Below, piece after piece: positions 29,364 through 45,669 of a stretch of DNA of 64,000 nucleotides. The notes under the pieces are model-generated. The model did no database searches and was not told the origin of the DNA. It saw only the letters and a list, made by a program, of their open reading frames with translations. The stretch covers positions 66,689-130,688 of the forward strand of contig BDTJ01000038.1 of NCBI GenBank assembly GCA_002897655.1, in the 5' to 3' direction. Each line of letters opens with the position of its first letter. Position 1 is the stretch's first letter. Source of the DNA: an archaeon BMS3Abin17. Lineage in GTDB: Archaea > Nanobdellota > Nanobdellia > Pacearchaeales > GW2011-AR1. A program made the translations under genes and the position numbers.

Positions 29364-29834
29364 ATGTACCCAAAAATACATATTATTTATGGAGCAATCT
29401 TTTCTTTATTACTCTTAGTGATTTATCCCCCAATAGGATTAATAGGATTTTCATTGATATTTCTCTCAAGTTTTTTAATAGATACAGATCATTATCTTTA
29501 TTATGTATTCAGGAAAAAAGACTGGAATCTAAAACATGCTTATTCTTGGTTTGTTAAAGGGGATAAGATGATGAAGGCTTTAAAACAGAATAAGAGAATT
29601 AATTTTTATACTGGTTTTTATTTTTTTCACGGGCTTGAGACATTTTTTCTCTTAATTCTACTTTCAGTATTTGTATCAAAATATTTCTTTCTTATGCTTA
29701 TTGGAGTATCTTTTCATTTAATTTTAGATATGGTTGATGAAATAAAACGTAAAAAAGGTAGAATAGATAAGATCTCTATTATCTATGATTATTTTAGATT
29801 TAAGAAATTAAAACTAATTCAAGATGAAAAATAA
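29364..29834 (+). CDS. Integral membrane protein, hypothetical
   Basis: 156 aa, 4 predicted TM helices. Confidence 0.4.
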   Translation: MYPKIHIIYGAIFSLLLLVIYPPIGLIGFSLIFLSSFLIDTDHYLYYVFRKKDWNLKHAYSWFVKGDKMMKALKQNKRINFYTGFYFFHGLETFFLLILLSVFVSKYFFLMLIGVSFHLILDMVDEIKRKKGRIDKISIIYDYFRFKKLKLIQDEK

Positions 29835-30729
29835 ATTAACAAGGATTGTTAAGAGCATCAGAAAAAATGGTTTTTTACATTTTTTTAAGTTACTAAAATT
29901 TCATTTTATTACAATTATATATTTTAAGACTGAATATCTTAAAACTTTGCTAAAAAATAACTTTACATCCGAGAAGATAGTTCTTTTCTATCCAGATAAA
30001 CCTTCTCATAGACATGTTATCTGGAAATTGTGTAATATGATTGGATATAAAATAATAAATAATCTTTCAAAAAAGTTTTCTTTTGCTATAAACTGGCAGG
30101 ATAAAACATTCAAGACACCCGATGAGAAAATTAAAGAGGTTAATAAAAAAATACCTGTATTGAACATAAACTGCAATGACATAAGTAAGCAAAATATCGG
30201 AGTAGTTTTTAAGAAGATTTTTGGATATTCACTTGATATTAACCCAAAAAAATATGGAGGAAAATGTGTCAGAAAACCAAACTTAAATGCAAGCGGGATT
30301 GGGCATGTAATTAATTGTCCTTCTAAAAAAGAAAAGGGATTTGCTTATGAGAAATTAATCAATACAAAAAATAATGAGGGTCTTTTAGTGGATTTCAGGG
30401 TTCCAATCTTTAAAGATATAATCCCTTGTGTTCAGCTGAGGTATAAATCTCCCAACCCCATATTTATAGATAGTTTAAAGAAAATAGAGATTAAAGAAAG
30501 TAAAGAGATATTTTCAAAATCAGAATTAAAGAAGATTTTTCTATTTTGTAAAAGATTGGGGATGGACTATGGGGAGTTGGATATACTAAGAGATAAGGAT
30601 AATAACAAAATATATATTGTTGATGCAAACACCACTCCATTTGGACCCCATGGCCTTCCGAGGAAGATAACTAAAGAGATATTGAAAAAATCTAGTATTG
30701 CTTTTGCAGAAATGATAAAGAATAATTAA
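29824..30729 (+). CDS. ATP-grasp domain protein
   Basis: 301 aa; KCVRKPNLNASGIGHVI (ATP-binding strand) and MDYGELDILRDKDNNKIYIVDANTTPFGP (C-terminal ATP-grasp motif). Confidence 0.5.
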   Translation: MKNKLTRIVKSIRKNGFLHFFKLLKFHFITIIYFKTEYLKTLLKNNFTSEKIVLFYPDKPSHRHVIWKLCNMIGYKIINNLSKKFSFAINWQDKTFKTPDEKIKEVNKKIPVLNINCNDISKQNIGVVFKKIFGYSLDINPKKYGGKCVRKPNLNASGIGHVINCPSKKEKGFAYEKLINTKNNEGLLVDFRVPIFKDIIPCVQLRYKSPNPIFIDSLKKIEIKESKEIFSKSELKKIFLFCKRLGMDYGELDILRDKDNNKIYIVDANTTPFGPHGLPRKITKEILKKSSIAFAEMIKNN

Positions 30730-31451
30730 TCTTTTCTTTTTATTTCCCCATAAAATCTTTTTATTGCCTGAACCGGGAAAACAATAGCATTTATCAAAAC
30801 AAGATATGGAAGAAGATTAAGAATCCCAAAAAAGAAGATACTATTGAATGTCATAATCCTAAAAAATTGCCATAACTCATCCATGATTGGGTTTTTTCTT
30901 CTGTCTTGAGACTTGAAATTTTTCTGCATCTTTTTCAGTTTAGAGAACTCTTTTTTATCAATATACATTTCATATTTCTTTAATTTTAGGAAATTATTAA
31001 TCATCATAGAATACATTCCAATAAAACCAACTATTAAGAAAAAGATATCTGGAAAAGGGGTCGGGTTGTTGATATATACTCCAATAGCAATTCCCATAAT
31101 AATTAAAGGGTTTATTATGATATGACCTATATAATCAAGATAAAGGCCTTTTTCAGAGTATAATTTTTTATATCTTGCAATCTCCCCATCACAACCATCT
31201 AAAAGGAGATGTATGTGATAGACAAGAACTCCTAGAAGAATATACCCATATCTGCCTGTCATAAAAAGAAAAGCAGATACAATTCCTAAGAAAAGCATGA
31301 CAACAGTTACCTGATTAGGAGTTATTGAAGGGCGAATCTTCAAAAGAAACCACGTAATTCTTATAGTAATCTTTCTTGCAAGTTTTTCTCTCCAAGGCTC
31401 TGTTTTAGCTGGTCTCCCGCAGACATCTTGTATTTCTTTTACTGAAGGCAT
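30726..31451 (-). CDS. CDP-alcohol phosphatidyltransferase family membrane protein
   Basis: 241 aa; signature D-G-x2-A-R-x8-G-x3-D-x3-D present as LLDGCDGEIARYKKLYSEKGLYLDYIGH; multiple TM. Confidence 0.75.
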   Translation of the reverse strand: MPSVKEIQDVCGRPAKTEPWREKLARKITIRITWFLLKIRPSITPNQVTVVMLFLGIVSAFLFMTGRYGYILLGVLVYHIHLLLDGCDGEIARYKKLYSEKGLYLDYIGHIIINPLIIMGIAIGVYINNPTPFPDIFFLIVGFIGMYSMMINNFLKLKKYEMYIDKKEFSKLKKMQKNFKSQDRRKNPIMDELWQFFRIMTFNSIFFFGILNLLPYLVLINAIVFPVQAIKRFYGEIKRKD

Positions 31452-31556
31452 ACTTAATTTTAGAAAAACTTATTTTTAAACTCTTCTAATGATTTGACAA
31501 TACACCCAATATTGCAACTACATTAGTTTTATAAATAACCCATCTTAAATTACTCT

Positions 31557-32288
31557 ATGAAAGCAGTAATTTTGGCAGCAGGTTATAACAGGAGATTAAA
31601 AAATATTATTGATATCCCTAAAACTCTATTAAAAGTGGGAGATACAACAATCCTTGAAAGACAGATTAATGCTTTAGTAGAGTCTGGTTTAAAAAAAGAA
31701 GATATCTTTGTTGTCTCAGGGTATAAACGTGAGATGATTGAAAAGGTTCATAATAATATCATAATTAATGAGAAATATATTGAATATGATAATGCTTACA
31801 GTGTTTATCTTGCATTAAAGTATCTTTTAGAGGATTTAAACACAAAAGAAGAAATCCTGATTTTTGATGGGGATTTAATATATGATGTTGAATTAATAAA
31901 GCCATTAATTGAATCTGAAAAAGAAGATATTTTTGTCACAAGAGAGACTCCTTATTCTTCAAGCATTAAAGATGAGACTATGATAGTCAATCAAGATAAT
32001 GAAATTATGCAGATGATTATACCTTCAGAGGAGACCCCTCTTGATAAATATAAGGATGAAAAATTATTTGTGTATACAGGAATCTTAAAATTATCAGAAG
32101 GAAAAGCAAATGAACTTAAGAGGGTATTAGAAAACCCTGAACTCTGGAAAACATGGTATACAATTCCATTACCAAATATTGTAAACAAGGGAGGATTCTA
32201 TAACCTTCCAATAAGGGAAAATATAAAATTTTGCTTTGATATAGATGATAAAAAAGACCTTGAAAAGCTTAGAAACCTAAAAATTTAA
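31557..32288 (+). CDS. Sugar/alcohol-phosphate nucleotidyltransferase (LicC/MobA-like GT-A fold)
   Basis: 243 aa; MKAVILAAGYNRRL...LLKVGDTTILERQI NTP-transferase N-terminus. Confidence 0.65.
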   Translation: MKAVILAAGYNRRLKNIIDIPKTLLKVGDTTILERQINALVESGLKKEDIFVVSGYKREMIEKVHNNIIINEKYIEYDNAYSVYLALKYLLEDLNTKEEILIFDGDLIYDVELIKPLIESEKEDIFVTRETPYSSSIKDETMIVNQDNEIMQMIIPSEETPLDKYKDEKLFVYTGILKLSEGKANELKRVLENPELWKTWYTIPLPNIVNKGGFYNLPIRENIKFCFDIDDKKDLEKLRNLKI

Positions 32289-32340
32289 TCATATCCTTTA
32301 ACTACATAATTCTTATAAATGTTTCAAATTTCATTTTTTA

Positions 32341-34164
32341 ATGAAAGCCATTATCCTTGCAGGTAAAAAAGACCTTAATATAACCCAAGATATGCCAAAA
32401 GAATTACTAAAAGTAGGGAATATTACGATTTTAGAAAGACAAATTAGTATTCTTCTTGCATCTGGCCTTAAAAAACAAGACATACTTGTTGTTACAGGAT
32501 ATAAGCATGAGAGGATAGAAAAAATACACCCAAACACTGTTTTTAATGATAAATATTTAGAATATGGTAATGCTTACGGAGTTTATTTGGCTTTAAGTGG
32601 CTTAAGTGATAAATCAGGGGGAACAATTAATGAGGATCTTCTTATTCTTGATGGAGATCTTGTATATGATGCAGATTTAATCAATCAAATAATAAATTCG
32701 GATAAGGAAAACCTGCTTGTAACAAAACCTGTAGAATATTTAGCTAAGATTAAAGATGAAATCATTATTTCTGAAAAGAATACTAACCTAATAACAAATA
32801 TGATAATCCTCCAAAAAGGAGAAAAACTTCCTGAAAAATACAAATGCGAGAAATTACATACCTACTTGGGAATAATCAAACTATCTTCAGGAACTGCCTT
32901 TAATTTTAGAAATATCTTTACTAATCAATCTTTTTTTGATGGGTGGTATACTATCCCACTTCTTGAAATAATGAAAAAAGAAGCTTTCTATAACTTGTCT
33001 ATTCCACAGGATTTGAGATTTACAGGAGTTGATACTTTAAATGATTACAATAAAGTTGTTAAAATGTTTGTTGCAGGGCCTGTAAACGTATCACAAAAAG
33101 TAAAAGATTCTACAATTTACCTTGAAATTGGGCATAGGGAACCAGAATTCATGGATTTATTCAAGGAATTAAGAAGAAAGCTTTTGTATTCTTTTGGAGT
33201 AAGCTCTCACTCAGACAAATATGAAACAATTATTTGTGGTGGATCTGGGACCTCTGCAATGGAGATGACACTATCTTCTGTTTTACATTCAAATAAGAAA
33301 ACATTAGTCATCACTAATGGGAGTTTTGGAGAAAGGATTGTGGAAATATGCAATCTGTACAACATTCCAACAATCCATTTCAAGTATGAATGGGGGGAAT
33401 ATCCAAATATTAATGAAATCAATAACAAACTTAAACAAAATCAAGATATAGAATCAGTTGCAATGGTTTTAATGGAGACAAGCACAGGAATGTTAAATCC
33501 AGTAAATGAGATTGGAAAATTGTGTAGAGAACATGAAAAGATATTTATTGTTGATGCAATAAGTGCACTTTGGGGAGAGAAACTTAATGTGATAGAGGAT
33601 AATATTGATTACTGTGTAACTAATACTAACAAGTGTTTGGGTGGTCTTCCTGTTTTAGGGATAATTTGTTATAAGAAATCCTCTCTTGAAAAAGTTAAAA
33701 ATATCTCTCCGCGTTCTTATTCTTTGGATTTAATCAAACATGCCAAGTATGCAGAGAAGGATCAAACCCCATTTACTCCCATGATTCCTTTATTTTATAT
33801 GTTAAATCAGGCACTTGATGAATTAATTGAAGAAGGGATAGAGAATAGAATTCAGAGATATAAAAGAAATGGAGACCTATTAAAAAGTGAACTGAAAGAG
33901 ATAGGGCTAAGTTTCCATCTAAAAAAAGAGGAAATGTCCAATCTCATGGTTAATATTTTAGTTCCTGAAAATCTGACATATAATGATATACATAGCAAAA
34001 TGAAAGAAAGAGGTTATGTTTTTTATCCAGGAAAAGGCCCGCTTGAGGGAAGGACAATACACCTTGCAAATATAGGGACCCTTACAGAGCAGGATATTCT
34101 TCTGTTTTGCAAAGATTTAAAAGAAGTTTTATCTGAATTAAATAAAACTCCTGATGATATTTAA
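32341..34164 (+). CDS. Bifunctional nucleotidyltransferase (N) / class-V (PhnW-like) aminotransferase (C) fusion
   Basis: 607 aa; N-terminal 240 aa paralogous to 31557..32288; C-terminal domain has aminotransferase class V layout (GGSGTSAMEM..., PLP-lysine region NTNKCLGG). Confidence 0.65.
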   Translation: MKAIILAGKKDLNITQDMPKELLKVGNITILERQISILLASGLKKQDILVVTGYKHERIEKIHPNTVFNDKYLEYGNAYGVYLALSGLSDKSGGTINEDLLILDGDLVYDADLINQIINSDKENLLVTKPVEYLAKIKDEIIISEKNTNLITNMIILQKGEKLPEKYKCEKLHTYLGIIKLSSGTAFNFRNIFTNQSFFDGWYTIPLLEIMKKEAFYNLSIPQDLRFTGVDTLNDYNKVVKMFVAGPVNVSQKVKDSTIYLEIGHREPEFMDLFKELRRKLLYSFGVSSHSDKYETIICGGSGTSAMEMTLSSVLHSNKKTLVITNGSFGERIVEICNLYNIPTIHFKYEWGEYPNINEINNKLKQNQDIESVAMVLMETSTGMLNPVNEIGKLCREHEKIFIVDAISALWGEKLNVIEDNIDYCVTNTNKCLGGLPVLGIICYKKSSLEKVKNISPRSYSLDLIKHAKYAEKDQTPFTPMIPLFYMLNQALDELIEEGIENRIQRYKRNGDLLKSELKEIGLSFHLKKEEMSNLMVNILVPENLTYNDIHSKMKERGYVFYPGKGPLEGRTIHLANIGTLTEQDILLFCKDLKEVLSELNKTPDDI

Positions 34165-34244: not shown

Positions 34245-35369
34245 TTATTTGTATTCAGGATACATCTTTGTTATAGATTCTTCGTTAGGTTCGCAAATCC
34301 CTTTCTCAGTGATTAGTCCAGTCACCAACCTTGCTGGAGTAACATCAAAAGCATAATTTGTAGCAAGACTATTCTTAGGAGTTAAAAGTACTTTCTTGAC
34401 CGAACCTTCACATAAACCTTGGATATATTTTACTTCATCTGTCTCTCTTTCTTCAATTGGAATCTCTTTAATACCATCTTTCATTGTCCAGTCAAATGTG
34501 GATGGAAGTAATCCAACATAAAAAGGGATATTGTTGTCTTTTGCAGCTAATGCTTTTAGATATGTTCCAATTTTATTTGCAACATCCCCTGTACGTGTTG
34601 TCCTATCACTTCCTACAAGGACCATATCCACCAGACCATGCTGCATCAGATGTCCTCCAACATTATCTGCAATCACATGATGCGGTATATTTTCCCATCC
34701 TAATTCCCATGCTGTTAATCTAGCGCCCTGATTCCTTGGTCTTGTTTCATCTACCCAAACATGAACTTTAATACCTTTTTTTACAGCTTCATATATTGGT
34801 GCGGTTGCAGAACCATAATCAACAGCAGATAACCAACCTGCATTACAATGTGTCAATATATTTACAGGTTCACCCCCTTTCTTTTTGCTTATTTGTTCAA
34901 TTATTTTTGAGCCATGTACCCCAATAAGTCTGCAATATTCTGCACCTTCGTCTGTAATTTCTTTTGCGGTTTTCAATGCTATGGAAATTTTTTCTTCTGG
35001 AGAAATTTTCTTTTTTATTGTAGCTAACTGCCTTTTAACAGAACATGCAAGATCTGCCGCAGTTGGTCTTGTTGCTTTAAGCTTTTCTCCAGCCTTTATT
35101 AAGAAATCATCAAAAGAATCATCCTTTGGTGCTTCTAAAGTAGCAAGATACATACCATAACCAGCAGTTGCTCCAATCAAACCAGCGCCTCTAACATGCA
35201 TCTCTTTTATTGCCCTAGCAACATCATCAACAGTTTTTAAAGATTCTATAATAAATTCATGTGGAAGGTTTCTCTGGTCAATTATCTGAATTATTTTTTC
35301 ATCCCCTTCTTTTACCCATATTGTACGATAATGTTTTCCATTGACTTTCATTTTAGTTCTCCTTACCAC
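34245..35369 (-). CDS. eIF2B-like/MtnA family sugar-phosphate isomerase (ribose-1,5-bisphosphate or methylthioribose-1-phosphate isomerase)
   Basis: 374 aa; ...VRGAGLIGATAGYGMYLA... and ...TRPRNQGARLTAWEL...VGSDRTTRTGDVANKIGTY motifs of eIF-2B alpha/beta/delta family. Confidence 0.7.
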   Translation of the reverse strand: MVRRTKMKVNGKHYRTIWVKEGDEKIIQIIDQRNLPHEFIIESLKTVDDVARAIKEMHVRGAGLIGATAGYGMYLATLEAPKDDSFDDFLIKAGEKLKATRPTAADLACSVKRQLATIKKKISPEEKISIALKTAKEITDEGAEYCRLIGVHGSKIIEQISKKKGGEPVNILTHCNAGWLSAVDYGSATAPIYEAVKKGIKVHVWVDETRPRNQGARLTAWELGWENIPHHVIADNVGGHLMQHGLVDMVLVGSDRTTRTGDVANKIGTYLKALAAKDNNIPFYVGLLPSTFDWTMKDGIKEIPIEERETDEVKYIQGLCEGSVKKVLLTPKNSLATNYAFDVTPARLVTGLITEKGICEPNEESITKMYPEYK

Positions 35370-35551: not shown

Positions 35552-36238
35552 ATGATTGCGATGATTAAGAAGGCACTTAAAGGTTATCTATTCAACAAAA
35601 ATATAATTTTAACCAACTATAATTACCCAAATAAAAAAGAAAGATTCAATTTAATTAAAAGTTTGGGAAAAAGACTTTATTTAGAAGGAAACGAGGCTTA
35701 TCAACTATATACAATAGTAAGAAATATATGTAAAAAACAAAAGGGGGCGTTGGCAGAGGTAGGAATGTTCCTGGGAGGCTCTGGCAAACTAATCTGTGAA
35801 GCTAAAGGGAATAATCCTTTTTATGGGTTTGATACTTTCGAAGGCTTACCAAAACCCCAAGAAATAGATAGGTCAAAACACAAATGGGAGTGTGATTTTA
35901 TTGAAGGACAGTATAAGTCGGATTTTGAAGACGTCAAGAATTATCTTAAAGAATATAAAGATGTTAAGATATACAAAGGACTATTCCCAGATTCAGCAGA
36001 TAAAGAAGTTAAAAAACAAAAATTTATTTTTATTCATTTAGATGTAGATATCTACAGTTCTACAAAAGATTGTTTGGAGTTTTTTTATCCCAAGATGAAA
36101 AAAGGAGCAGTATTATTATCTCACGATTATTCAACATCAAAAGGGATAAGGAAAGCTTTTGATGAGTTTTTTAAAAATAAACCTGAAACAGTTATAGAAT
36201 TGTCAAACAAATCTCAGTGCATATTTATCAAACTTTAA
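35552..36238 (+). CDS. TylF/MycF-like class I SAM-dependent (sugar) O-methyltransferase
   Basis: 228 aa; EVGMFLGGSG...GFDTFEGLP...IHLDVDIYSSTKDCLEFFYPKMKKGAVLLSHDY matches macrocin-O-MT family pattern. Confidence 0.6.
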   Translation: MIAMIKKALKGYLFNKNIILTNYNYPNKKERFNLIKSLGKRLYLEGNEAYQLYTIVRNICKKQKGALAEVGMFLGGSGKLICEAKGNNPFYGFDTFEGLPKPQEIDRSKHKWECDFIEGQYKSDFEDVKNYLKEYKDVKIYKGLFPDSADKEVKKQKFIFIHLDVDIYSSTKDCLEFFYPKMKKGAVLLSHDYSTSKGIRKAFDEFFKNKPETVIELSNKSQCIFIKL

Positions 36239-36282
36239 AAGAGGAACCCTTCAATAGTTATTTAAACGAGTAAAATTTTTTC

Positions 36283-37788
36283 TTGATTATGGGAAAAGTT
36301 TCTAGAAAAGTTGTATCAGAATCTCTTTGGAAGTTCGTTTCCACAATTATAACTAAAGCAGGCGCCTTGATTTTTGTTGTATTGCTTGCACGTTTTTTAA
36401 GACCAGAAGGTTTTGGCGTTTATAATCTTGCAATGGCAATAGTTTTGACTTTCACCTTACTTACTGATTTAGGAGTAAACAGGACTCTTCTAAGATATTT
36501 CTCCTTTTCATTAGGAAAAAAGGATAAATCCAAAGCAGTTGCTTATGCAAGATATCTTTTTAAGATTAAATTTCTTATAGTGACGGTATTTTCAATACTT
36601 TTCCTAGTTTTAGCATATCCTCTTTCATTTTGGGTTTTTAAAAAGCCAGAATTGTTTTGGCCGTTAATTATTCTTTCCATTTACTTAGTTGTTCTGTCTT
36701 TTGAGATGTTTTTTGAGTATTTCTTTTATGCTATCAAGAAAATTAAATTTCTCACAATAAAAGAAGTATTTTTGCAGGCACTTAGAATATCTTTTGCTCT
36801 TTTGGTTTTTGCCTTTTTAATGGGTTATAATAGAATCCTGGGAATTTTTGTAGCTGTCTTGTTTGCACACTTATTCACTTCTATCTTTTTATTTGTGCTT
36901 TTGAAGAAACATGTCTCTTTTATATTTGAAAAATCTGAATCAAAAATCAATAAGAAGAAGTTATTTAGTTTTCTGAAATATCTTGCTGTGGGGGGGATAT
37001 CTGCTATGTTCTTTGTTTATGTAGACATTATTATGCTCGGAATATTTCTCCCCTCAACTTATGTGGGATACTATTCCGCAGCAGTTGCTTTGGTTGGAGC
37101 CCTTATTTTTCTAATCCCCGCATCAAATGTGCTCCTCCCAGTATTTACCCAATTAAAAAAAGGCCAATTGAAAAATTCTTTTGATAAGGTTTTCAAATAT
37201 GTTTGCCTACTTTCTATCCCAGTAATCTTTGGCGCACTGGCAGTAGGGAGATACTTTATTCGTGTTTTTTATGGATATGAATATCTTCCATCCCTAATTC
37301 CCCTTTATTTTCTTGTTTTTTTGGTTTTTAGTGAAGTGTTAACAGGAACTCTTATATCTTTATTTTCTGCAAGGGAAAAACCACAGTATTTTGTCAAATA
37401 TCTCTTGATTTTTTCAGCATTAAATGTAATTTTGAATTATTTTTTAATCAAATTTTTCATTAATTTCTCTTTTGAATTAGCCATGGTTGGTGCCGCAATA
37501 GCAACTTTAACTACAAGATACTCTTACATGATTGCTTTAGGAATTATTTCAGTTAAAAAATTAAATATAAATTATAAACTAACTCACTTTGTAAAACCAC
37601 TAATTGCATCAATACTAATGTTCTTAGCAATATTCTATATAAATTACACTATAAAGGACATGACTTTGCTTCTTGGTCTGGGAGAGATTCTACTGGGAGT
37701 TTTTGTTTATTTTATATTAATGTTCTTAATGAAAGGATTCAGGAAAGAAGACTTCCAGATGATTAAGGACGCAATTAAAAACCTATAA
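36283..37788 (+). CDS. Polysaccharide/oligosaccharide flippase (Wzx-like, MOP superfamily)
   Basis: 501 aa, ~14 TM helices, polysacc_synt-like N-terminus. Confidence 0.7.
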   Translation: MIMGKVSRKVVSESLWKFVSTIITKAGALIFVVLLARFLRPEGFGVYNLAMAIVLTFTLLTDLGVNRTLLRYFSFSLGKKDKSKAVAYARYLFKIKFLIVTVFSILFLVLAYPLSFWVFKKPELFWPLIILSIYLVVLSFEMFFEYFFYAIKKIKFLTIKEVFLQALRISFALLVFAFLMGYNRILGIFVAVLFAHLFTSIFLFVLLKKHVSFIFEKSESKINKKKLFSFLKYLAVGGISAMFFVYVDIIMLGIFLPSTYVGYYSAAVALVGALIFLIPASNVLLPVFTQLKKGQLKNSFDKVFKYVCLLSIPVIFGALAVGRYFIRVFYGYEYLPSLIPLYFLVFLVFSEVLTGTLISLFSAREKPQYFVKYLLIFSALNVILNYFLIKFFINFSFELAMVGAAIATLTTRYSYMIALGIISVKKLNINYKLTHFVKPLIASILMFLAIFYINYTIKDMTLLLGLGEILLGVFVYFILMFLMKGFRKEDFQMIKDAIKNL

Positions 37789-37832
37789 GATTCCTCACAA
37801 AAACTTTTAAACCCCCTTAATATTTTAAAAAC

Positions 37833-38939
37833 ATGATAAAAAGAATAGCTTTTTTCACAGTGGGATTTGCTTTTAATAGGCTTGTTAGAATGAAGTTTTA
37901 TGAGAAGATTTTTCCAAAAAACGTGGAGATTTACTTATTTACTACAAATAAATACCTTGGGAAAGAAAAAGAGAATTATCAGCAAAGATATGAAAAAGAT
38001 TTAAAGAGAACCAAAGTCATTTATGCAGATTATAATCCTCTAAAATTATCTTTTACATTGCGGAAGCTTTGCAAAAAACACCAAATTGATAGGGTAATGA
38101 CTTTAGGCCACAATCTTGGGGGTTTCTTTTTATTGTTTGCAACATTGCTCCTAAAGACAGATTTTTGTATGAATGTTCTTGCAGCTGAATTTAATAGGTA
38201 TAAGATCACTGGAAGCATAAAAGAATCTGCCTTGCTTTTGGCAGATAATATTTACTTATTTGTTCTTATGCAATTTGCAAAAAAAGGCATGTTTACAGAC
38301 GCTCTTGATGCCAAAAGAGCCCCGACATTTTTCTTAAGAGAGAAGAATTCTATGAATCACTTGCCAGCACCAGTTAATACAGATTTATTTAAAATAAAGA
38401 ACAAAGTTAAATGCAGAAAAAAATTAAAATTACCTTTAAATAAAAAAATAATAATCTTTGTTGGGAGAATTGTATTCACAAAAGGGTCTAATTATCTCAA
38501 GGAGTTAATAAAAAAACATAAAGATATTCATTTTATAGTAATTGGAAGGATGATAGATAAAGATTTCTTGAATATGAAATGTAAAAATTTCCAGTGGATT
38601 GAAAAAAAGACATCAAAAGAATTGATTGATTATTATAATGCTGCTGACTTAAGTTTTTGCGTGAACAGGGAAGGGGGGGGAATTGGATTAACTTCAGAAG
38701 AGGCACTAGCCTGCGGAGCCCCAATTATTGTATCAAAATTATTTCGTTTAAAAAAATCCCCCGCACTTTATCAAGTTTCTTTGAATTTTGAGGAGATAGA
38801 TAAAGCTGTTATCGACTTTTTCAAATTATCTAAAGATGAAAGAAAGAAAGTATCAAAAATTTCCAGGAATTATGCAAAAGAAACATACTCTGATAAAGTT
38901 TTAAAAAACAAATATATTACAGCCTATCTGATAAAATAA
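37833..38939 (+). CDS. Glycosyltransferase family 1 (GT-B, GT4-like)
   Basis: 368 aa; C-terminal EGGGIGLTSEEALACGAPIIVS motif. Confidence 0.7.
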   Translation: MIKRIAFFTVGFAFNRLVRMKFYEKIFPKNVEIYLFTTNKYLGKEKENYQQRYEKDLKRTKVIYADYNPLKLSFTLRKLCKKHQIDRVMTLGHNLGGFFLLFATLLLKTDFCMNVLAAEFNRYKITGSIKESALLLADNIYLFVLMQFAKKGMFTDALDAKRAPTFFLREKNSMNHLPAPVNTDLFKIKNKVKCRKKLKLPLNKKIIIFVGRIVFTKGSNYLKELIKKHKDIHFIVIGRMIDKDFLNMKCKNFQWIEKKTSKELIDYYNAADLSFCVNREGGGIGLTSEEALACGAPIIVSKLFRLKKSPALYQVSLNFEEIDKAVIDFFKLSKDERKKVSKISRNYAKETYSDKVLKNKYITAYLIK

Positions 38940-39003
38940 TTTAATTCTCTTGTATGATTTATTCTCTATAAACTTATATACCTCAATTTCCCCCATTTTT
39001 GAT

Positions 39004-39522
39004 ATGGGAAAAAAATTAAATATTGGAAGTGGTAATGATTATAAAGAAGGGTTTGTGAATTTAGATTGTAATAAGAATCTGAAGGCAGATATTTATGCTA
39101 ATCTTGAAAAAAAATGGCCATTTCCAGATAATTCTTTTGATTATATTTATGCTAGTAATATCATAGAACATTTTGAAAATATACATTTTATTTGTGATGA
39201 ATTACACAGGGTTGCAAAGAATGGCGCTATTATTGAGATAATTGTTCCACATTATACTGGGAGACACGCTTTCAAAATTTTACAACATAAAACTTATTTT
39301 GGAATTGGAACTTTTGGAGATTATACTAAAGAATCTGTGGAGAGATTTTATCCAATAAAATTTGATGTTCTTAAGGAACGGCTTTGGTTTTTTAGACCCC
39401 GTTATAGACTCAGTTTTATAAATGGATTTTTTAATCTTAGTAAGAAATGGATGGCGATATCAGAAAGATTTAATCCATTCGGGTTTGATGAGATATATTA
39501 TAAATTAAAGGTAGTAAAATAA
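39004..39522 (+). CDS. Class I SAM-dependent methyltransferase
   Basis: Start trimmed to MGKKLNIGSGNDY... (motif I), DIYASNIIEHF motif. Confidence 0.6.
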   Translation: MGKKLNIGSGNDYKEGFVNLDCNKNLKADIYANLEKKWPFPDNSFDYIYASNIIEHFENIHFICDELHRVAKNGAIIEIIVPHYTGRHAFKILQHKTYFGIGTFGDYTKESVERFYPIKFDVLKERLWFFRPRYRLSFINGFFNLSKKWMAISERFNPFGFDEIYYKLKVVK

Positions 39523-39553
39523 TCTTTATAAACCCCTTTTTGTGTCCTTTCTT

Positions 39554-40435
39554 ATGAAATATCCAAAAGTATCGATTTTAATTATAAATTATAATGGGGG
39601 AGATAAGGTAATCCGGTGTTTGAATTCAGTGATGAAATTAGATTACCCTTCTTATGAGATTATAGTAATTGATAATGGAAGTAGTGACGGGAGTCAGGAA
39701 AAAATAAAAAAAGAATTTAGCCAAATAAAATTAGTGGAAAATAAGGAAAATTTAGGAAGTGTGGGGGCCCATAATCAGGGATTTAAACTTGCTAAGGGAG
39801 ATTTTATTCTTGGTCTTGATGATGACGCTGTCGCGTCTCCTTCTCTTTTAAAAAACCTTGTTAAAGTCGCATTATCTAATAATAAGATTGGAATTGTTGT
39901 TCCAAAAATATATTATTACAGCAAGCCAAATATTTTTAATAGCACAGGATTTTTTCTAAATCCAATAACAGGAAAGATGAAAGATCTTGGAATTGGAAAA
40001 GAAGATAAAGGTCAATTGGACTTTCAAAGGGAAATTGATTATGTGCCAAGTTCTATTATTTTAATCAAAAAAGAAGCATTAAAAACAGCAGGAGGAATGA
40101 ATGAGGATTATTTTGTTTATTACGAAGATTCAGATTGGTGCCTTAGAGTAAGAAATGCTGGATATAAGATAGTTTATACTCCAAATACAAAAGCATGGCA
40201 TGATTGCAAAACCCAGGGGGAGCTATCACCTTTTAGAGTATATCATTATACTAGGGGAAAAACTCTTTTTATGAAACAGAGCAGCACTCCACTCAATAAA
40301 TTTTTATTTATCTTATTTCACATATTTTTGTATTCTCCAGCAAGGATTTTTTCATTTATTTTAAAAGGAAAATTCAATCTAATAAAACCATATATTCAAG
40401 GAACTAAAGAAGGGTTATCCAGTAAAAGAAAGTAA
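39554..40435 (+). CDS. Glycosyltransferase family 2
   Basis: Start trimmed to MKYPKVSILIINYNGG...; DxD (LGLDDDA) present. Confidence 0.75.
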   Translation: MKYPKVSILIINYNGGDKVIRCLNSVMKLDYPSYEIIVIDNGSSDGSQEKIKKEFSQIKLVENKENLGSVGAHNQGFKLAKGDFILGLDDDAVASPSLLKNLVKVALSNNKIGIVVPKIYYYSKPNIFNSTGFFLNPITGKMKDLGIGKEDKGQLDFQREIDYVPSSIILIKKEALKTAGGMNEDYFVYYEDSDWCLRVRNAGYKIVYTPNTKAWHDCKTQGELSPFRVYHYTRGKTLFMKQSSTPLNKFLFILFHIFLYSPARIFSFILKGKFNLIKPYIQGTKEGLSSKRK

Positions 40436-40437
40436 TC

Positions 40438-41472
40438 TTACCACAGCCACCATTCTATGCTTGAATCATAGGCATGGTCGCAATTCTTGCAGACAGGAGA
40501 GGAAAAATCAAAATTTAAATGCTGTTTTTGCAGTTCTTTGAATGCTTTTGATTCTCTTAACTTTTTAATATCATCTCCTTTGATTAAGTTTCCGAATTTA
40601 ACTCTGGATTCATAATCTCTGCAGCAAACAACAAACTCTCCTTTTGAGTGAATTACAATGTGCGTCCATAAAGCAGAACAAGTCCATTGCCTTCTTCCGT
40701 AAGGGATGTTCTGTTCTCCGACATACTCTTTTAATGTTCCTGCCCAGTCTGATGGAAAATATGCTCGGACAGAATCAGAATATTTTCTCCAAAAATTAAC
40801 GAAATTTTGTGCCTTTTCTTCATTTTCTTTTAAAATCATCATAGAAATATTTGTTAATGCAGGCTTTCTTTTTTCCTTGTTGTTTTTTAAAAAATACAAA
40901 ACATTTCTTTTGGTATTCTCATAATCCAGACCCATAACTTTGTTATAATCTTCTTCTATGCCATTTATGGAAAAAGTGACTCTTCCAAGATTTGTTTTTA
41001 ATAATTCATCTGCCCTTTTTTTAGTTAATAACGCAGCATTGCTGTAAATATCCACTTTTAATTTAGGATATTTCTTATTAACATACTTTATTTTCTCTAT
41101 AACTCCCTTATCTGTGAAGGGTTCTCCAAATCCATTAATAGTGAGTCTTTTAATATCATAATTTTTCATAACATTATCCAAGATTTTCTTAAAATTCTCT
41201 AAACCCATAACACTTATCTTTCTCTTCATAGTCTTATGGGGGCACATTAGGCATTTTGCATTGCATGCATTAGTTGTCTCTATTTGCAGAATCTTCGGAG
41301 TTATTCTTTCTGCTTCTTTTTTTATTCTTTTCAGGTAAATTGCACCATATAATCTGGAGTTTACAATTCTGGACAAAGGCGATTGATAAAGGAGAAATTT
41401 CTTAAATGGTCTGGCAAATCCTTCTAATTTAAGATAATATCTTGTTTCCTGAATAAAGTTCTTGATATTCAT
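40438..41472 (-). CDS. Radical SAM protein with SPASM-like C-terminal cysteine cluster
   Basis: 344 aa; CNAKCLMCPH (Cx3Cx2C); C-terminal CSALW...VVCCRDY...CKNCDHAY. Confidence 0.75.
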   Translation of the reverse strand: MNIKNFIQETRYYLKLEGFARPFKKFLLYQSPLSRIVNSRLYGAIYLKRIKKEAERITPKILQIETTNACNAKCLMCPHKTMKRKISVMGLENFKKILDNVMKNYDIKRLTINGFGEPFTDKGVIEKIKYVNKKYPKLKVDIYSNAALLTKKRADELLKTNLGRVTFSINGIEEDYNKVMGLDYENTKRNVLYFLKNNKEKRKPALTNISMMILKENEEKAQNFVNFWRKYSDSVRAYFPSDWAGTLKEYVGEQNIPYGRRQWTCSALWTHIVIHSKGEFVVCCRDYESRVKFGNLIKGDDIKKLRESKAFKELQKQHLNFDFSSPVCKNCDHAYDSSIEWWLW

Positions 41473-41545
41473 GGGGTCCTATATTCTGGGGTATATATAA
41501 AATTAACTACATAATTCTTATAAACTAACATAGTTAGGATTTCTT

Positions 41546-42769
41546 ATGAGAATTGCACATATAAATATGTTTTATCTGCCTACTTTTGGAGGGGTGGAGC
41601 AGGTTATGTATGAGTTAACCAAAAAACAGGTTAAAGAAGGGCATGAGGTCCATGTTTTTTGCTGTGACTCAGATAAGAATAAGAGAATAAATGTAAAAGA
41701 AGAAATAATTGAAGGAGTTCATGTTCACAGGTTTCCTTACTGGTTTAGATTATCTCTAAATACATTTATCTGGCCTTCTTTATTGTGGAGGTTTAAGAGA
41801 TACACTCAAAACTCAAAGAATTTTGGTGCCACAAAATCCATGGCTGTTCGTTCGCACAGGCGCGGGGGCGAGGATTTTGTCGGCTTTGATATAATTCACA
41901 CTCATGTATCCGGGCATGCTTACATATTATTTGCAGGAATTCTGGCTAAATCAAAGGGCATAAAGCATATTCATACAACTCATTGTCCTTGGACAGATAT
42001 GTCTTTTAGACCCTGGATATTAAGGCCCTTTTTGTTCCTAAATGAGCTTTTTTTTAACAGATTATCCTTTAGCCTTATTGATAAGATTGTTTCAATAACT
42101 CCCTGGGAAAAAGAAACCCTGAAAAAGTTTACAGAAGAGGGGAAAATAAGAATTATAAAAAACGGAATGGACGATATTCTCTATAAAAAAATAAAAAAGA
42201 ATAATTTCAAGAAGAATCATAAGATAAAAGAGAAAAAATTAGTTTTGTTTTTCGGGAGATTAAATCCTACAAAAGGGCCTGAAAAATTAGCCCTTGCAGC
42301 AATTAACATCTCTAAAAAAAGAAAAGATATTGCCTTTGTTTGGGTTGGACCTGATGAAGGCAAAGCAGAAGAGGTCAAGAAATTAATCAAACCATACAAA
42401 AATATGAAATATCTTGGCCCTCTTAGAGGAAAAGAAAAAATAGCTGAGATGTATCAGGCATCAGATGTTTATGTTCTTCCAACCTATCGTGAAGGATTAC
42501 CTTTAACACTTTTTGAGGCAATGGCTTCTGGGTTGCCTATAGTAACTTCTCCTGTAAACGGGATTCCTTATGAAATGAAAGAACCAGAAAATGGATTTTT
42601 TTCTGATTACGGGGATATTGAGAGTTTAGAAACTAATATATTAAAAATTCTTGATAACCCTGAACTGGCAAGAAAAATCTCTCTTAATAACTTTAAAAAG
42701 GCAAAACAATATGAGTGGAATATTATTCATAAACAATATATGAAAGAGTATGAATCTCTTTTAAAATAA
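41546..42769 (+). CDS. Glycosyltransferase family 1 (GT4-like)
   Basis: 407 aa; FFGRLNPTKG...EGLPLTLFEAMASGLPIVTS. Confidence 0.75.
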   Translation: MRIAHINMFYLPTFGGVEQVMYELTKKQVKEGHEVHVFCCDSDKNKRINVKEEIIEGVHVHRFPYWFRLSLNTFIWPSLLWRFKRYTQNSKNFGATKSMAVRSHRRGGEDFVGFDIIHTHVSGHAYILFAGILAKSKGIKHIHTTHCPWTDMSFRPWILRPFLFLNELFFNRLSFSLIDKIVSITPWEKETLKKFTEEGKIRIIKNGMDDILYKKIKKNNFKKNHKIKEKKLVLFFGRLNPTKGPEKLALAAINISKKRKDIAFVWVGPDEGKAEEVKKLIKPYKNMKYLGPLRGKEKIAEMYQASDVYVLPTYREGLPLTLFEAMASGLPIVTSPVNGIPYEMKEPENGFFSDYGDIESLETNILKILDNPELARKISLNNFKKAKQYEWNIIHKQYMKEYESLLK

Positions 42770-42893
42770 TAAAATGAAAACAAAAAAATTAAAAACTTCA
42801 AGAACAAAGTTCTTGGCAGTCCCAGAAATTCCAAGTATAACAAAAAGAATTTCTGAGATTTTTAGCATTCATTTTTAAGGAATTAAACAAAAA

Positions 42894-44429: not shown

Positions 44430-44439
44430 TGATATCTTT

Positions 44440-44691
44440 TTAATTAAGCTCTTTTTCTATTTTCTTATGTTTGGAGAAATCATAAGTTAGATTAAATTTT
44501 TCTTTCATAAAAGTTTCATATGTGTGAATCATTGCAATTACAATTCTTTTTTCCTTTTTGGTTAAATTACACATACATGAATTACAATTAGGACATTTAA
44601 AATCTCCACATTTAGGGCATTCTATTGGCTTCCTTGATTTTGAAAACCATTCAAGACATTTAAAACATCTTACTTTTTTTGGGCTACACAT
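44440..44691 (-). CDS. Cysteine-rich zinc-finger protein, hypothetical
   Basis: Start trimmed to internal Met to reduce overlap with queC-like gene; CFKC...CPKC...CPNC. Confidence 0.35.
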   Translation of the reverse strand: MCSPKKVRCFKCLEWFSKSRKPIECPKCGDFKCPNCNSCMCNLTKKEKRIVIAMIHTYETFMKEKFNLTYDFSKHKKIEKELN

Positions 44692-45667: not shown

Positions 45668-45669
45668 AA

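What the first reader, a model, noticed from the sequence alone, without database searches (positions are those of the whole stretch)
29824..34164. Nucleotidyltransferase paralogs (one fused to a class-V aminotransferase) beside a CDP-alcohol phosphatidyltransferase and an ATP-grasp enzyme
Genes 31557..32288 and the N-terminus of 32341..34164 are tandem paralogs of a LicC/MobA-like nucleotidyltransferase. The second is fused to a PhnW-like class-V aminotransferase. This fused architecture is characteristic of the CMP-2-aminoethylphosphonate branch of phosphonate tailoring (the Treponema PntC type). Divergently upstream are a CDP-alcohol phosphatidyltransferase, which would transfer a CDP/CMP-activated amino-alcohol head group to a lipid or glycan acceptor, and an ATP-grasp ligase. 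Together these suggest a pathway that aminates, nucleotide-activates and transfers a small phospho- or phosphono-amino alcohol onto archaeal lipid or surface glycan. No PEP mutase or phosphonopyruvate decarboxylase is visible in the window, so a phosphonate identity is only a hypothesis. The substrate could instead be a phosphate ester.
Basis: inference. Interest (0 to 1): 0.6.

Follow-up and report, generated by a model that had tools for sequence, protein, structure and literature searches.

The report
Phosphonate-like head-group module without phosphonate genes
A tiny symbiotic archaeon carries a four-gene set that looks like the bacterial machinery for attaching aminoethylphosphonate to the cell surface, but it lacks the phosphonate-making genes and has changed key catalytic residues, so it probably activates and attaches a different, still unknown small amino-alcohol phosphate.

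Summary
The window (a Pacearchaeota/DPANN contig) encodes an ATP-grasp-fold protein, a CDP-alcohol phosphotransferase, a stand-alone LicC/PntC-type nucleotidyltransferase (NTase) and a 50%-identical paralog fused to a PhnW-like aminotransferase (AT). The best PDB match is Treponema PntC-AEPT (6PD1). The aminate, CTP-activate and transfer logic is supported by conserved synteny and by an independent fusion of an AT to a non-homologous cytidylyltransferase.

The phosphonate identity is not supported.
- No Ppm or Ppd occurs in the 64-kb window or in any of 10 non-redundant DPANN loci. The closest Arg-type bacterial relatives have them in 23 of 31 loci (p = 4e-5).
- The DPANN AT clade falls outside the PhnW/AEPT clade. 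It replaces the conserved substrate-anchor Arg with His.
- Arg-less bacterial relatives (Gln) sit next to glycerol kinase, which points to phosphate-ester chemistry.

Three further variants emerged.
- The transferase has His in place of the fourth catalytic Asp. This defines a large uncharacterised subfamily.
- The fused NTase has lost its pyrophosphate-loop Arg, so the stand-alone copy is probably the active one.
- A cultured Tumebacillus carries a similar gene set.

Verdict: a new variant of a known kind. The substrate is unresolved.

The parts
29824..30729 (+). ATP-grasp-fold enzyme (301 aa). Whether it is a ligase or a kinase is unresolved. The N-terminus forms two long helices.
30726..31451 (-). 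CDP-alcohol phosphotransferase (241 aa) with the variant signature D85xxD88GxxARx8Gx3D106x3H110. His replaces the fourth Asp, which is the catalytic base and Mg-2 ligand.
   Evidence: PF01066. Motif found by scan. His is invariant in 14 relatives and present in 117 of the top 149 representatives in an exhaustive profile search. Role of D4 from PMC6506517. Closest outside relative is the transferase of the Ppm-linked cluster L013 (35% identity).
31452..31556 (.). Divergent intergenic region with an archaeal TATA-like box (TTTATAAATA, 31527-31536), 21-30 nt upstream of the stand-alone NTase ATG.
   Evidence: Read directly from the sequence. The 21-nt block 31516-31536 is 18/21 identical to 32300-32320, upstream of the fusion gene.
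31557..32288 (+). Stand-alone LicC/PntC-type nucleotidyltransferase (243 aa, NTP_transf_3 + DUF6564). It has an intact AAGxNxRLx7PK loop and is the likely active cytidylyltransferase.
   Evidence: G-loop alignment. 31% identical to the PntC-position NTase of L013.
32300..32320 (+). Duplicated promoter block with a TATA-like box (CTTATAAAT, 32312-32320) upstream of the fusion gene.
   Evidence: compared.
32341..33066 (+). N-terminal NTase domain of the fusion. It is a paralog of 31557-32288 with a degenerate pyrophosphate loop (ILAGKKDLNITQDMPK): a 2-residue deletion and no Arg.
   Evidence: 50% identity, E=3e-64. Among 13 DPANN fusions and the stand-alone copies, only this one and P0008 (Arg to Glu) lack the Arg, and both have a stand-alone paralog directly upstream. 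Alanine substitution at Arg15 of Tde-PntC gives <10% of wild-type activity (PMC6697681).
33067..34164 (+). C-terminal class-V PLP aminotransferase domain. It is PhnW-related but belongs to a distinct 'His-class' clade. Schiff-base Lys lies in TNTNK. His574 replaces the PhnW Arg340-equivalent.
   Evidence: Motif table. Group-specific positions. Tree and association test.
34245..35369 (-). IF-2B/MtnA-type sugar-1-phosphate isomerase. It is a conserved neighbour of the AT in DPANN. Membership of the module is uncertain.
   Evidence: TIGR00512 mtnA 386 bits against a cutoff of 279. Immediately downstream of the AT in 6 of 10 non-redundant DPANN loci plus the P0011 contig. Same strand with a 4-nt overlap in L003.
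35552..63716 (.). Context: a large surface-glycan island. It holds a TylF methyltransferase, a Polysacc_synt flippase, GT1/GT2/GT4/GT9, PMT_2, four B12-radical-SAM enzymes and one SPASM radical-SAM enzyme, epimerases, a deacetylase, a Phosphodiest-family enzyme and a flippase-like LPG_synthase_TM protein.

Best explanation
This is a Kennedy/Lic-type head-group activation-and-transfer module at the edge of a Pacearchaeota (DPANN) surface-glycan island.

Proposed steps:
1. The PLP aminotransferase domain makes a small phosphorylated amino-alcohol from a keto- or aldehyde-phosphate.
2. A LicC/PntC-type cytidylyltransferase couples it to CTP. This is most likely the stand-alone paralog, because the fused copy has lost its pyrophosphate-loop Arg.
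3. The membrane CDP-alcohol phosphotransferase transfers the phospho-amino-alcohol from the CDP/CMP donor onto a membrane-associated hydroxyl acceptor, either host-derived lipid or lipid-linked glycan. This enzyme uses His instead of the fourth Asp.
4. The co-conserved ATP-grasp enzyme either amide-ligates the new amine to a carboxylate or phosphorylates a precursor.

The module is homologous to bacterial aminoethylphosphonate (AEP) tailoring triads. However, it has lost Ppm/Ppd and the AT's anchor Arg. The substrate is therefore more likely a phosphate ester than AEP. Candidates are DHAP to serinol phosphate, or another 2-keto-1-phosphate.

Shown: domain identities, paralogy, conserved synteny, residue changes, absence of Ppm/Ppd nearby. 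Inferred: reaction order, substrate, acceptor, and which NTase is active.
For: - Architecture and homology.
- AT and NTase are adjacent or fused in DPANN loci. The trio with the His-type transferase and the ATP-grasp recurs in L002 and L011.
- L011 fuses a different class-V AT to a PF01467 cytidylyltransferase. That domain is closest to human ethanolamine-phosphate cytidylyltransferase (89 bits) and glycerol-3-phosphate cytidylyltransferase (76-88 bits). It scores only 51 bits to the Fom1 phosphonate CyTase.
- Ppm/Ppd are present in 23/31 Arg-class loci, 0/10 His-class and 0/46 Gln-class. Fisher p = 3.9e-5 and 3e-13.
- The His clade is monophyletic (93% bootstrap) and excluded from the Arg + PhnW + Tde-AEPT clade (74%).
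- The His and Gln classes share Tyr91 to Phe and an invariant Lys331.
- Gln-class ATs sit directly downstream of a bona fide GlpK in 27/46 loci. HisJ-type phosphatases and GlpR regulators are nearby in some.
- L001 has an APH-family small-alcohol kinase convergent on the fusion gene.
- Degenerate fused G-loop: with mutagenesis data in PMC6697681.
- His at the catalytic-base position of the transferase.
Against: - The best HMM for the AT is still PhnW-AepZ (305 bits, far ahead of other models).
- All three core proteins have their nearest outside relatives in a genuine Ppm-Ppd cluster.
- One related locus, L002, encodes a PhnD that passes the equivalog cutoff, plus PhnC and PhnE, five genes away. 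AEP scavenging is therefore possible.
- Whole genomes could not be searched for Ppm. 8 of 31 Arg-class loci also lack Ppm/Ppd within the fetched flank.
- The DPANN loci are phylogenetically related, so the Fisher test overstates independence.
- No candidate substrate was tested. The structural role of the Arg in PhnW is recalled knowledge, not verified here.
Confidence: 0.5

Rival explanations
1. One reading: a true CMP-2-aminoethylphosphonate pathway. The AT makes AEP from phosphonoacetaldehyde, or AEP is imported. A PntC-type NTase makes CMP-AEP. The CDP-alcohol phosphotransferase installs AEP on lipid or glycan. Ppm/Ppd would be encoded elsewhere, or AEP would be scavenged from the host or environment through PhnCDE.
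For: - Best PDB hit is Tde PntC-AEPT with the same two-domain architecture.
- TIGR03301 is the best model.
- The homologous AT-NTase-CDP-OH triad lies in the Ppm-Ppd cluster L013.
- A bona fide PhnD-type binding protein with PhnC and PhnE lies near the cluster in L002.
- There is precedent in the Burkholderiales_CDP-OH group, which has two PntCs (PMC8942020).
Against: - No Ppm/Ppd in 64 kb here or in any of 10 DPANN loci, against 23/31 Arg-class loci.
- The AT lies outside the AEPT/PhnW clade and lacks the anchor Arg.
- TIGR03301 is below its cutoff.
- If AEP were imported, the strongly conserved AT would have no biosynthetic role.
- PhnD is present in only one locus and absent from the window.
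- The L011 replacement cytidylyltransferase resembles phosphate-ester enzymes.
Confidence: 0.2
2. The AT substrate is the product of the adjacent MtnA-type isomerase: a ketose-1-phosphate such as 5-deoxyribulose-1-P, methylthioribulose-1-P or ribulose-1-P. This could derive from 5'-deoxyadenosine released by the many radical-SAM enzymes of the island. Amination at C2 would give a 2-amino-2-deoxypentitol-1-phosphate. That product would be CDP-activated and transferred, as an amino analogue of the CDP-ribitol (TarI/TarJ) logic.
For: - The IF-2B/MtnA-type gene is immediately downstream of the AT in 6/10 non-redundant DPANN loci plus the P0011 contig. This holds across different upstream contexts and both orientations. 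In L003 it is on the same strand with a 4-nt overlap.
- It passes the MtnA cutoffs, not the R15P-isomerase cutoffs.
- A ketose-1-P shares the 2-keto-1-phosphate head of DHAP.
- The islands are rich in radical-SAM enzymes.
- A PNP_UDP_1 phosphorylase lies at the end of L003.
Against: - The arrangement is mostly convergent, so the genes are not co-transcribed.
- The adjacency may be inherited synteny among related Nanoarchaeota/Pacearchaeota.
- It is absent from L002, L011, L015, L018 and L019.
- A pentulose phosphate is much larger than the substrates of PhnW-family enzymes.
- The L001 APH kinase is not MtnK-like.
Confidence: 0.1
3. Reversed order: the NTase first cytidylylates a keto-phosphate, and the AT then aminates the nucleotide-linked intermediate, as sugar-nucleotide aminotransferases do. 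This would explain the loss of the dianion-anchoring Arg and the frequent NTase-AT fusion.
For: - The Arg is lost in exactly the two classes (His, Gln) that are fused to NTases in the sampled loci.
- Lys331 is invariant in both classes.
Against: - Most Gln-class ATs have no NTase nearby and pair with GlpK instead.
- Tde1415 is a fusion that keeps the Arg and acts on free AEP (PMC6697681).
- There is no precedent in the class-V AT family.
Confidence: 0.08

Closest known systems
Treponema denticola Tde1415 PntC-AEPT (PDB 6PD1/6PD2; Rice et al. 2019, PMC6697681)
   Same: Same two-domain architecture: an N-terminal LicC-like NTase and a C-terminal class-V AT. Both domains align, E=3.9e-63. The AT retains PhnW-type motifs: NGxFGxR, ETSTGMLNP, NKC, RSYSLDL, TPFTP.
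   Different: - Tde1415 keeps the G-loop Arg15, while the window's fused domain lacks it.
- Tde1415 keeps the AT anchor Arg (FRIANIG), while the window has His.
- According to the paper, Tde1415 sits near ppm; the window has no Ppm/Ppd in 64 kb.
- NTase identity is low (37.7 bits).
Bacterial Ppm-Ppd-AEPT-PntC-CDP-OH transferase clusters: the 'Burkholderiales_CDP-OH' group (PMC8942020), and L013 (Anammoxibacter MAG) found here
   Same: Homologous AT (39%), NTase (31%) and CDP-alcohol phosphotransferase (35%) lie in the same neighbourhood. Two NTases per cluster is common. An LPG_synthase_TM/flippase-like gene is also present in the window's island.
   Different: - The bacterial clusters carry Ppm (EDKLFPKTNS) and Ppd, an Arg-type AT and a canonical Asp4 transferase.
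- The DPANN module has none of these and adds an ATP-grasp enzyme.
Lic / Kennedy pathway (LicA kinase, LicC cytidylyltransferase, LicD or CPT/EPT transferase)
   Same: CTP activation of a small phospho-amino-alcohol by a LicC-family NTase, followed by transfer of the phospho-head group. LicC 1JYK is the best PDB hit of the stand-alone NTase. An APH-family kinase is present in L001.
   Different: The precursor appears to be made by transamination rather than by import plus phosphorylation. The transferase is a His-variant CDP-OH family enzyme, not LicD.
Archaeal IPCT/DIPPS (CTP:inositol-1-P cytidylyltransferase / CDP-inositol transferase)
   Same: It is the best or near-best NCBIfam model for both the NTase (55 bits) and the transferase (56 bits). 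It is an archaeal NTase + CDP-OH transferase pair that uses the NTase product as the donor.
   Different: Scores are far below the 580-bit cutoff. There is no inositol-phosphate synthase. An AT is present. Asp4 is replaced by His.
Campylobacter jejuni Cj1437/Cj1438C (DHAP to (S)-serinol-P transaminase plus an ATP-dependent amidoligase; PMC11800397)
   Same: A PLP transaminase makes an amino-alcohol phosphate for a surface glycan, together with an ATP-dependent enzyme that uses its amine.
   Different: No cytidylyltransferase or CDP-OH transferase is involved there.
Tumebacillus permanentifrigoris / T. flagellatus operon (L061, L088; uncharacterised)
   Same: It has a CDP-OH transferase, an NTase-AT fusion (31% identical over the full length) and a second stand-alone NTase with DUF6564. 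The AT is Arg-less and there is no Ppm/Ppd within 10 kb.
   Different: The anchor is Gln rather than His. The transferase has canonical Asp4. Both NTase loops are intact. A LigT-like phosphoesterase takes the place of the ATP-grasp.

Membership tests
PntC-AEPT fusion (Tde1415 type) | LicC-like NTase and class-V AT in one polypeptide | tested here: met
   Pfam NTP_transf_3 + Aminotran_5. Both domains align to 6PD1.
PntC-AEPT fusion (Tde1415 type) | NTase consensus GXG(T/S)RX4-8PK with catalytic Arg15 and Lys25 | tested here: not met
   The fused domain reads AGKKDLNITQDMPK: the Lys of PK is kept, but there is no Arg and a 2-aa deletion. The stand-alone paralog keeps GYNRRLx7PK. Requirement taken from PMC6697681.
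PntC-AEPT fusion (Tde1415 type) | AT domain belongs to the AEPT/PhnW clade | tested here: not met
   In the NJ tree, Arg-class + 1M32 + 9KK8 + 6PD1 are monophyletic (74/100) and exclude the DPANN clade. H+R grouping gets 8/100.
PntC-AEPT fusion (Tde1415 type) | Genomic association with Ppm and Ppd | tested here: not met
   None in the 64-kb window or in 10 non-redundant DPANN loci. Whole genomes were not searchable.
PntC-AEPT fusion (Tde1415 type) | Kinetic preference for AEP and CTP | not testable with these tools
   Needs enzyme assays.
PhnW/AepZ 2-aminoethylphosphonate aminotransferase (TIGR03301) | Score at or above the curated equivalog cutoff (360.8 bits) | tested here: not met
   305.2 bits. 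It is the best model, but below the cutoff.
PhnW/AepZ 2-aminoethylphosphonate aminotransferase (TIGR03301) | Conserved C-terminal anchor Arg (FRIGNIG; Arg340 of S. typhimurium PhnW, equivalent to AGXT Arg360, as recalled) | tested here: not met
   His574 in the window. His in 58 clade members, Arg in 48 PhnW-like sequences including 1M32, 9KK8 and 6PD1.
PhnW/AepZ 2-aminoethylphosphonate aminotransferase (TIGR03301) | PLP Schiff-base Lys and PLP-binding motifs | tested here: met
   TNTNK, VDA, GSGT and TPFTP are conserved.
CDP-alcohol phosphotransferase (PF01066) | Pfam score above the gathering threshold | tested here: met
   44 bits against 22.
CDP-alcohol phosphotransferase (PF01066) | Signature D1xxD2GxxARx8Gx3D3x3D4, with D4 as catalytic base and Mg-2 ligand | tested here: not met
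   D85, D88 and D106 are present, but D4 is H110. This is conserved clade-wide. Role of D4 from PMC6506517.
ATP-grasp superfamily | ATP-grasp fold | tested here: met
ATP-grasp superfamily | Carboxylate-amine ligase activity (as opposed to kinase) | tested here: inconclusive
   The top hits mix ligases (RimK, LysX/ArgX, GshB) and kinases (PPIP5K, ITPK1) at similar Z.
LicC / MobA-like NTase (PF12804) | Pfam score above the gathering threshold; LicC-like N-terminal fold | tested here: met
   Stand-alone copy 42.9 bits against 27. Fused copy 26.7 bits, just below 27. LicC 1JYK E=6e-11.

The most novel reading that the evidence does not exclude
DPANN archaea, and some bacteria such as Tumebacillus, make a previously undescribed CDP-activated amino-polyol phosphate. 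Examples would be CDP-serinol from DHAP, or a CDP-2-amino-2-deoxypentitol from the product of the neighbouring MtnA-type isomerase. They would install it on host-derived lipid or surface glycan using a hitherto unrecognised His-type subfamily of CDP-alcohol phosphotransferases. On this reading, the 'PhnW-like' aminotransferases that lack the anchor Arg are a separate functional family, and are widely mis-annotated as 2-aminoethylphosphonate transaminases.
Probability: 0.3. Interest if true: 0.75.

Novelty: new variant of a known kind. Interest (0 to 1): 0.55.

Why it matters
- DPANN archaea have minimal genomes and depend on hosts, so their surface chemistry is central to the symbiosis. It is almost entirely unknown. 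This module is conserved across Pacearchaeota/Nanoarchaeota glycan islands and would define a head group on their surface or membrane.
- The analysis gives a simple sequence marker for PhnW-like aminotransferases: Arg versus His or Gln at the FRIGNIG position. Arg-type enzymes are phosphonate-linked; the others are not. In these data, JGI names many of the Arg-less proteins '2-aminoethylphosphonate-pyruvate transaminase'.
- It reveals a large uncharacterised CDP-alcohol phosphotransferase subfamily in which the proposed catalytic-base Asp is replaced by His.
- It identifies cultured Tumebacillus strains carrying a similar gene set. This makes the chemistry experimentally accessible.

Tried and rejected
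- Literature search for the role of Arg340 in PhnW found nothing in the held library. The structural role is therefore marked as recalled knowledge, and the argument rests on the statistical association instead.
- Search for DPANN phosphonate literature found nothing relevant.
- The family of Cj1437 could not be established from the available papers. The serinol-P idea remains an analogy.
- The context of the Calothrix homolog of the ATP-grasp protein (L010) was uninformative: pilin-like genes only.
- I tested whether the His-type transferase is a hallmark of CMP-AEP users. This is rejected: the transferases in the Ppm-linked L013 and in the Arg-class L012 have Asp4.
- I tested whether the L001 APH kinase is MtnK. 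This is rejected: it gives only weak hits to GntI, thiamine and homoserine kinases.
- The listing of cluster members gave no organism names for the His-type transferase subfamily.
- Two bacterial fusion homologs (L008, L009) were fetched in the hope of finding Ppm/Ppd. They had none, which led to recognising the Gln class.
- A whole-genome Ppm search was not possible with the tools. Only +/-10 kb flanks can be fetched, and the look-ups were exhausted.

Full report
**1. What is there**

The window is a low-GC (about 31%) archaeal contig. It carries archaeal ribosomal proteins, an RpoD-like subunit and SecDF. Identical proteins are recorded by NCBI from Candidatus Pacearchaeota MAGs, on a contig of up to 158.8 kb.

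- ORF 31557-32288 is an NTP_transf_3 + DUF6564 nucleotidyltransferase. Its best solved relative is LicC.
- ORF 32341-34164 is an NTase (residues 1-240) fused to a class-V aminotransferase (243-598).
- The two NTases are 50% identical over 230 residues, E=3e-64.
- The best PDB hit of the fusion is 6PD1/6PD2, the Treponema denticola PntC-AEPT fusion, with both domains aligned, E=3.9e-63.
- The AT's best curated model is TIGR03301 PhnW-AepZ at 305 bits. This is below the 360.8-bit cutoff.
- ORF 30726-31451 (-) is a PF01066 CDP-alcohol phosphotransferase.

There is one small correction. The ATP-grasp gene is co-directional with the NTases and convergent on the transferase gene.

Each NTase gene has its own TATA-like box 21-30 nt upstream of the ATG. 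The two 21-nt upstream blocks are 18/21 identical, so the duplication included the promoter.

**2. The module is conserved in DPANN and sits in glycan islands**

Full-length fusion homologs (47-59% identity) and stand-alone AT homologs (up to 64%) come from Pacearchaeota, Nanoarchaeota and Iainarchaeum metagenomes. Their neighbourhoods show a recurring pattern.
- An NTase of about 245 aa lies immediately upstream of the AT, either fused or separated by 1 nt.
- The pair is embedded in flippase, GT, radical-SAM and methyltransferase islands, as in the window.
- Two alternative upstream modules occur. One is the ATP-grasp plus the CDP-OH transferase (window, L002, L011). Matching contig lengths suggest at least four further contigs carry it. 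The other is a pair of unknown proteins of roughly 610-640 and 410-460 aa, next to PMT_2 where Pfam detects it (L001, L003, and the P0011 and P0012 contigs).
- In L011 the same transferase and ATP-grasp flank a 513-aa protein. It fuses a different class-V AT to a PF01467 cytidylyltransferase.
- That domain is closest to human ethanolamine-phosphate cytidylyltransferase and to glycerol-3-phosphate cytidylyltransferase.
- An independent fusion to a non-homologous CTP-dependent enzyme is good evidence that amination and cytidylyl activation act on the same small molecule.

**3. Relationship to phosphonate clusters**

All three core proteins have their closest outside relatives in one bacterial cluster, L013. 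The identities are AT 39%, NTase 31% and transferase 35%. L013 is a textbook AEP set:
- a Ppm-NTase fusion with the EDKLFPKTNS motif
- a split Ppd
- AT, NTase and CDP-OH transferase
- an LPG_synthase_TM protein

This matches the 'Burkholderiales_CDP-OH' logic described by Li and Horsman (PMC8942020).

**4. Why the phosphonate identity is nevertheless not supported**

(a) No Ppm or Ppd. Neither the window nor any fetched DPANN locus contains a Ppm motif, a TPP-decarboxylase motif, or a BLAST match to L013's Ppm or Ppd.

(b) The anchor residue differs. I aligned about 120 homologs with sequences of 1M32, 9KK8, 6PD1 and 2DR1. At the conserved C-terminal Arg (FRIGNIG; Arg340 of PhnW and the equivalent of AGXT Arg360, from memory), the residues are:
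- Arg in all characterised PhnW/AEPT and in one set of bacterial homologs
- His in essentially the whole DPANN clade, including the window (GRTIHLANIG)
- Gln in a third, bacterial set

(c) The residue tracks Ppm/Ppd. A scan of GTDB species representatives gave 80 more loci. Over non-redundant loci, Ppm and/or Ppd are present as follows:

| AT class | Loci with Ppm/Ppd | Fisher vs Arg class |
|---|---|---|
| Arg | 23 of 31 | - |
| His (DPANN) | 0 of 10 | p = 3.9e-5 |
| Gln | 0 of 46 | p = 3e-13 |

(d) The tree separates them. In a bootstrapped NJ tree, the Arg class plus PhnW plus Tde-AEPT is monophyletic (74/100) and excludes the DPANN clade. The DPANN clade is itself monophyletic (93/100) and is slightly closer to the Gln class.

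(e) Shared changes. The His and Gln classes share further group-specific changes: Tyr91 to Phe in NGxYG, and an invariant Lys331.

(f) The Gln class points to phosphate esters. Gln-class ATs lie directly downstream of a bona fide glycerol kinase in 27 of 46 loci (TIGR01311 657 bits against a 590 cutoff). Some loci also have HisJ-type amino-alcohol-phosphate phosphatases, amino-acid/ethanolamine-type permeases and GlpR/DeoR regulators. This points to C3 polyol-phosphate chemistry, not phosphonate chemistry.

(g) A kinase in L001. L001 has an APH-family small-alcohol kinase abutting the fusion gene.

Caveats on this section:
- The DPANN loci are related to one another, so they are not fully independent samples.
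- 8 of 31 Arg-class loci also lack Ppm/Ppd within the fetched flank.
- Whole genomes could not be searched.
- One related locus, L002, has a PhnD that passes its equivalog cutoff, plus PhnC and PhnE, five genes from the module. That keeps an AEP-scavenging scenario alive, although it would leave the conserved AT without a role.

**5. Two further catalytic-site variants**

The transferase.
- Its motif reads D85xxD88GxxARx8Gx3D106x3H110.
- The fourth Asp is the Mg-2 ligand and presumed catalytic base in this family (PMC6506517). Here it is His.
- The His is invariant in the 14 closest relatives.
- An exhaustive profile search of 1.84 billion representatives found 253 proteins at E<=1e-30. Of the top 149, 117 have His and only 2 have Asp.
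- This is therefore a large, unnamed subfamily.
- It is not a general mark of phosphonate clusters. The transferases of L012 and L013 have Asp.

The fused NTase.
- The fused NTase domain reads ILAGKKDLNITQDMPK. Every other DPANN copy reads ILAAGxNxRLx7PK.
- The only other deviant is P0008, with Arg to Glu.
- These two are exactly the fusions that have a stand-alone paralog directly upstream (window and L001).
- Arg15Ala in Tde-PntC leaves less than 10% activity (PMC6697681).
- I therefore infer that the stand-alone copy is the working cytidylyltransferase here, and that the fused domain is catalytically impaired. It may be retained for structure.

**6. Most likely mechanism**

Shown: domain identities, synteny, residue patterns.

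Inferred:
1. The AT aminates a small keto- or aldehyde-phosphate.
2. The stand-alone NTase makes the CDP/CMP derivative.
3. The His-type CDP-alcohol phosphotransferase transfers the phospho-amino-alcohol to a membrane-associated acceptor.
4. The ATP-grasp enzyme either amide-links the new amine or phosphorylates a precursor. For the amide option, compare the C. jejuni serinol-phosphate amidoligase (PMC11800397). The top fold matches include both ligases and inositol-phosphate kinases.

I favour a phosphate-ester substrate of the DHAP/serinol-phosphate type (confidence about 0.5). AEP is the main rival (about 0.2).

A more speculative variant uses the product of the MtnA-type isomerase. That gene abuts the AT in 6 of 10 non-redundant DPANN loci.

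**7. Comparison with the known, and novelty**

The module works like the Lic/Kennedy and PntC pathways, and it is homologous to AEP-tailoring triads. It fails several defining tests for membership of the PntC-AEPT/PhnW family:
- the equivalog cutoff
- the anchor Arg
- clade placement
- Ppm/Ppd association
- for the fused domain, the NTase consensus

It is best described as a new variant of a known kind.

A cultured organism, Tumebacillus permanentifrigoris DSM 18773, carries a similar gene set: a CDP-OH transferase, an NTase-AT fusion, and a second NTase with DUF6564, without Ppm/Ppd nearby. The same AT fusion, extra NTase and transferase are detected in T. flagellatus GST4. These strains offer a direct experimental route.

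Noticed in passing
window 30726-31451 (H110); P0173-P0321: A large uncharacterised subfamily of CDP-alcohol phosphotransferases has His at the fourth-Asp (catalytic base / Mg-2) position. Its consensus is DxxDGE[VI]ARY...G.YLDxxxH. 117 of the top 149 cluster representatives have His, and a few have Asn or Tyr. All are unnamed metagenomic proteins.
   Followed up: partly
L020-L024, L031-L091 (46 non-redundant Gln-class loci, which also include L008 and L009): Bacterial 'PhnW-like' aminotransferases with Gln at the anchor-Arg position are never near Ppm/Ppd. In 27 of 46 loci they lie directly downstream of a bona fide GlpK glycerol kinase. HisJ-type phosphatases, APC permeases and GlpR/DeoR regulators are often nearby. 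This is probably an amino-propanediol / triose-phosphate pathway.
   Followed up: partly
L061 8518-12426 (Tumebacillus permanentifrigoris DSM 18773); fusion, extra NTase and transferase also detected in L088 (T. flagellatus GST4) and L059: L061 has a compact operon in a cultured Bacillota: CDP-OH transferase, then NTase-AT fusion (Gln class), then a second NTase with DUF6564, then a LigT-like phosphoesterase. The parts list resembles the window's. There is no Ppm/Ppd within 10 kb.
   Followed up: partly
window 34245-35369; L001, L003, L006, L016, L017: An MtnA-type (IF-2B family) sugar-1-phosphate isomerase is immediately downstream of the AT in 6 of 10 non-redundant DPANN loci. This holds despite different upstream contexts and both orientations. 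It may reflect a functional link or inherited synteny.
   Followed up: partly
L002 15896-19236: A Pacearchaeota-like contig encodes a PhnD passing the equivalog cutoff (278 bits against 261), plus an ABC ATPase and a permease. They lie next to a third NTase and two sulfatase/phosphodiesterase-family genes, five genes from the module. No equivalent exists in the window.
   Followed up: partly
L001 5887-9167; L003 6028-9134; P0011 and P0012 contigs: In loci that lack the CDP-OH transferase / ATP-grasp pair, two conserved proteins of unknown function occupy the divergent upstream position. They are roughly 610-640 and 410-460 aa, with no Pfam or NCBIfam hit, and lie next to a PMT_2 where Pfam detects one. 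They may be an alternative transfer module.
   Followed up: no
L011 6765-8306: A 513-aa fusion joins a class-V AT (closest PDB 3F0H) to a PF01467 cytidylyltransferase (ECT/TagD-like). It lies next to the His-type transferase. This is a non-orthologous replacement of the NTase-AT pair.
   Followed up: partly
window 22265-22960 and 24923-25765: Two free-standing LAGLIDADG_3 homing-endonuclease-like ORFs flank a pfkB/RfaE-like heptose kinase gene, a small membrane-protein ORF and a tRNA-Leu gene (24289-24372).
   Followed up: no
window 185-1411 and 4234-5571: A trehalase-family glycoside hydrolase and a TreT-type trehalose synthase lie near each other. This is unusual metabolic capacity for a reduced DPANN genome.
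   Followed up: no
window 42894-44429, 51343-52818, 56709-58163, 40438-41472: Three B12-binding radical-SAM enzymes and one SPASM radical-SAM enzyme are interspersed with glycosyltransferases in the glycan island. Similar sets recur in the related loci.
   Followed up: no
L014 (CAZLQZ010000002.1, 154,344 bp): The GTDB record is titled 'uncultured Methanosarcinales archaeon'. However, its contig length equals the longest-contig value listed for P0008, and it shows the same standalone-NTase / fusion / IF-2B gene order and identical NTase N-termini as L001, the Pacearchaeota-like locus carrying P0008. The label may come from a mis-binned or mislabelled MAG.
   Followed up: no
window 14762-15973 and 16312-17529: Tandem paralogous FtsX/MacB-type permease genes lie with an ABC ATPase at 20702-21430 and a CARDB/NPCBM-like surface protein at 18154-19020.
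   Followed up: no
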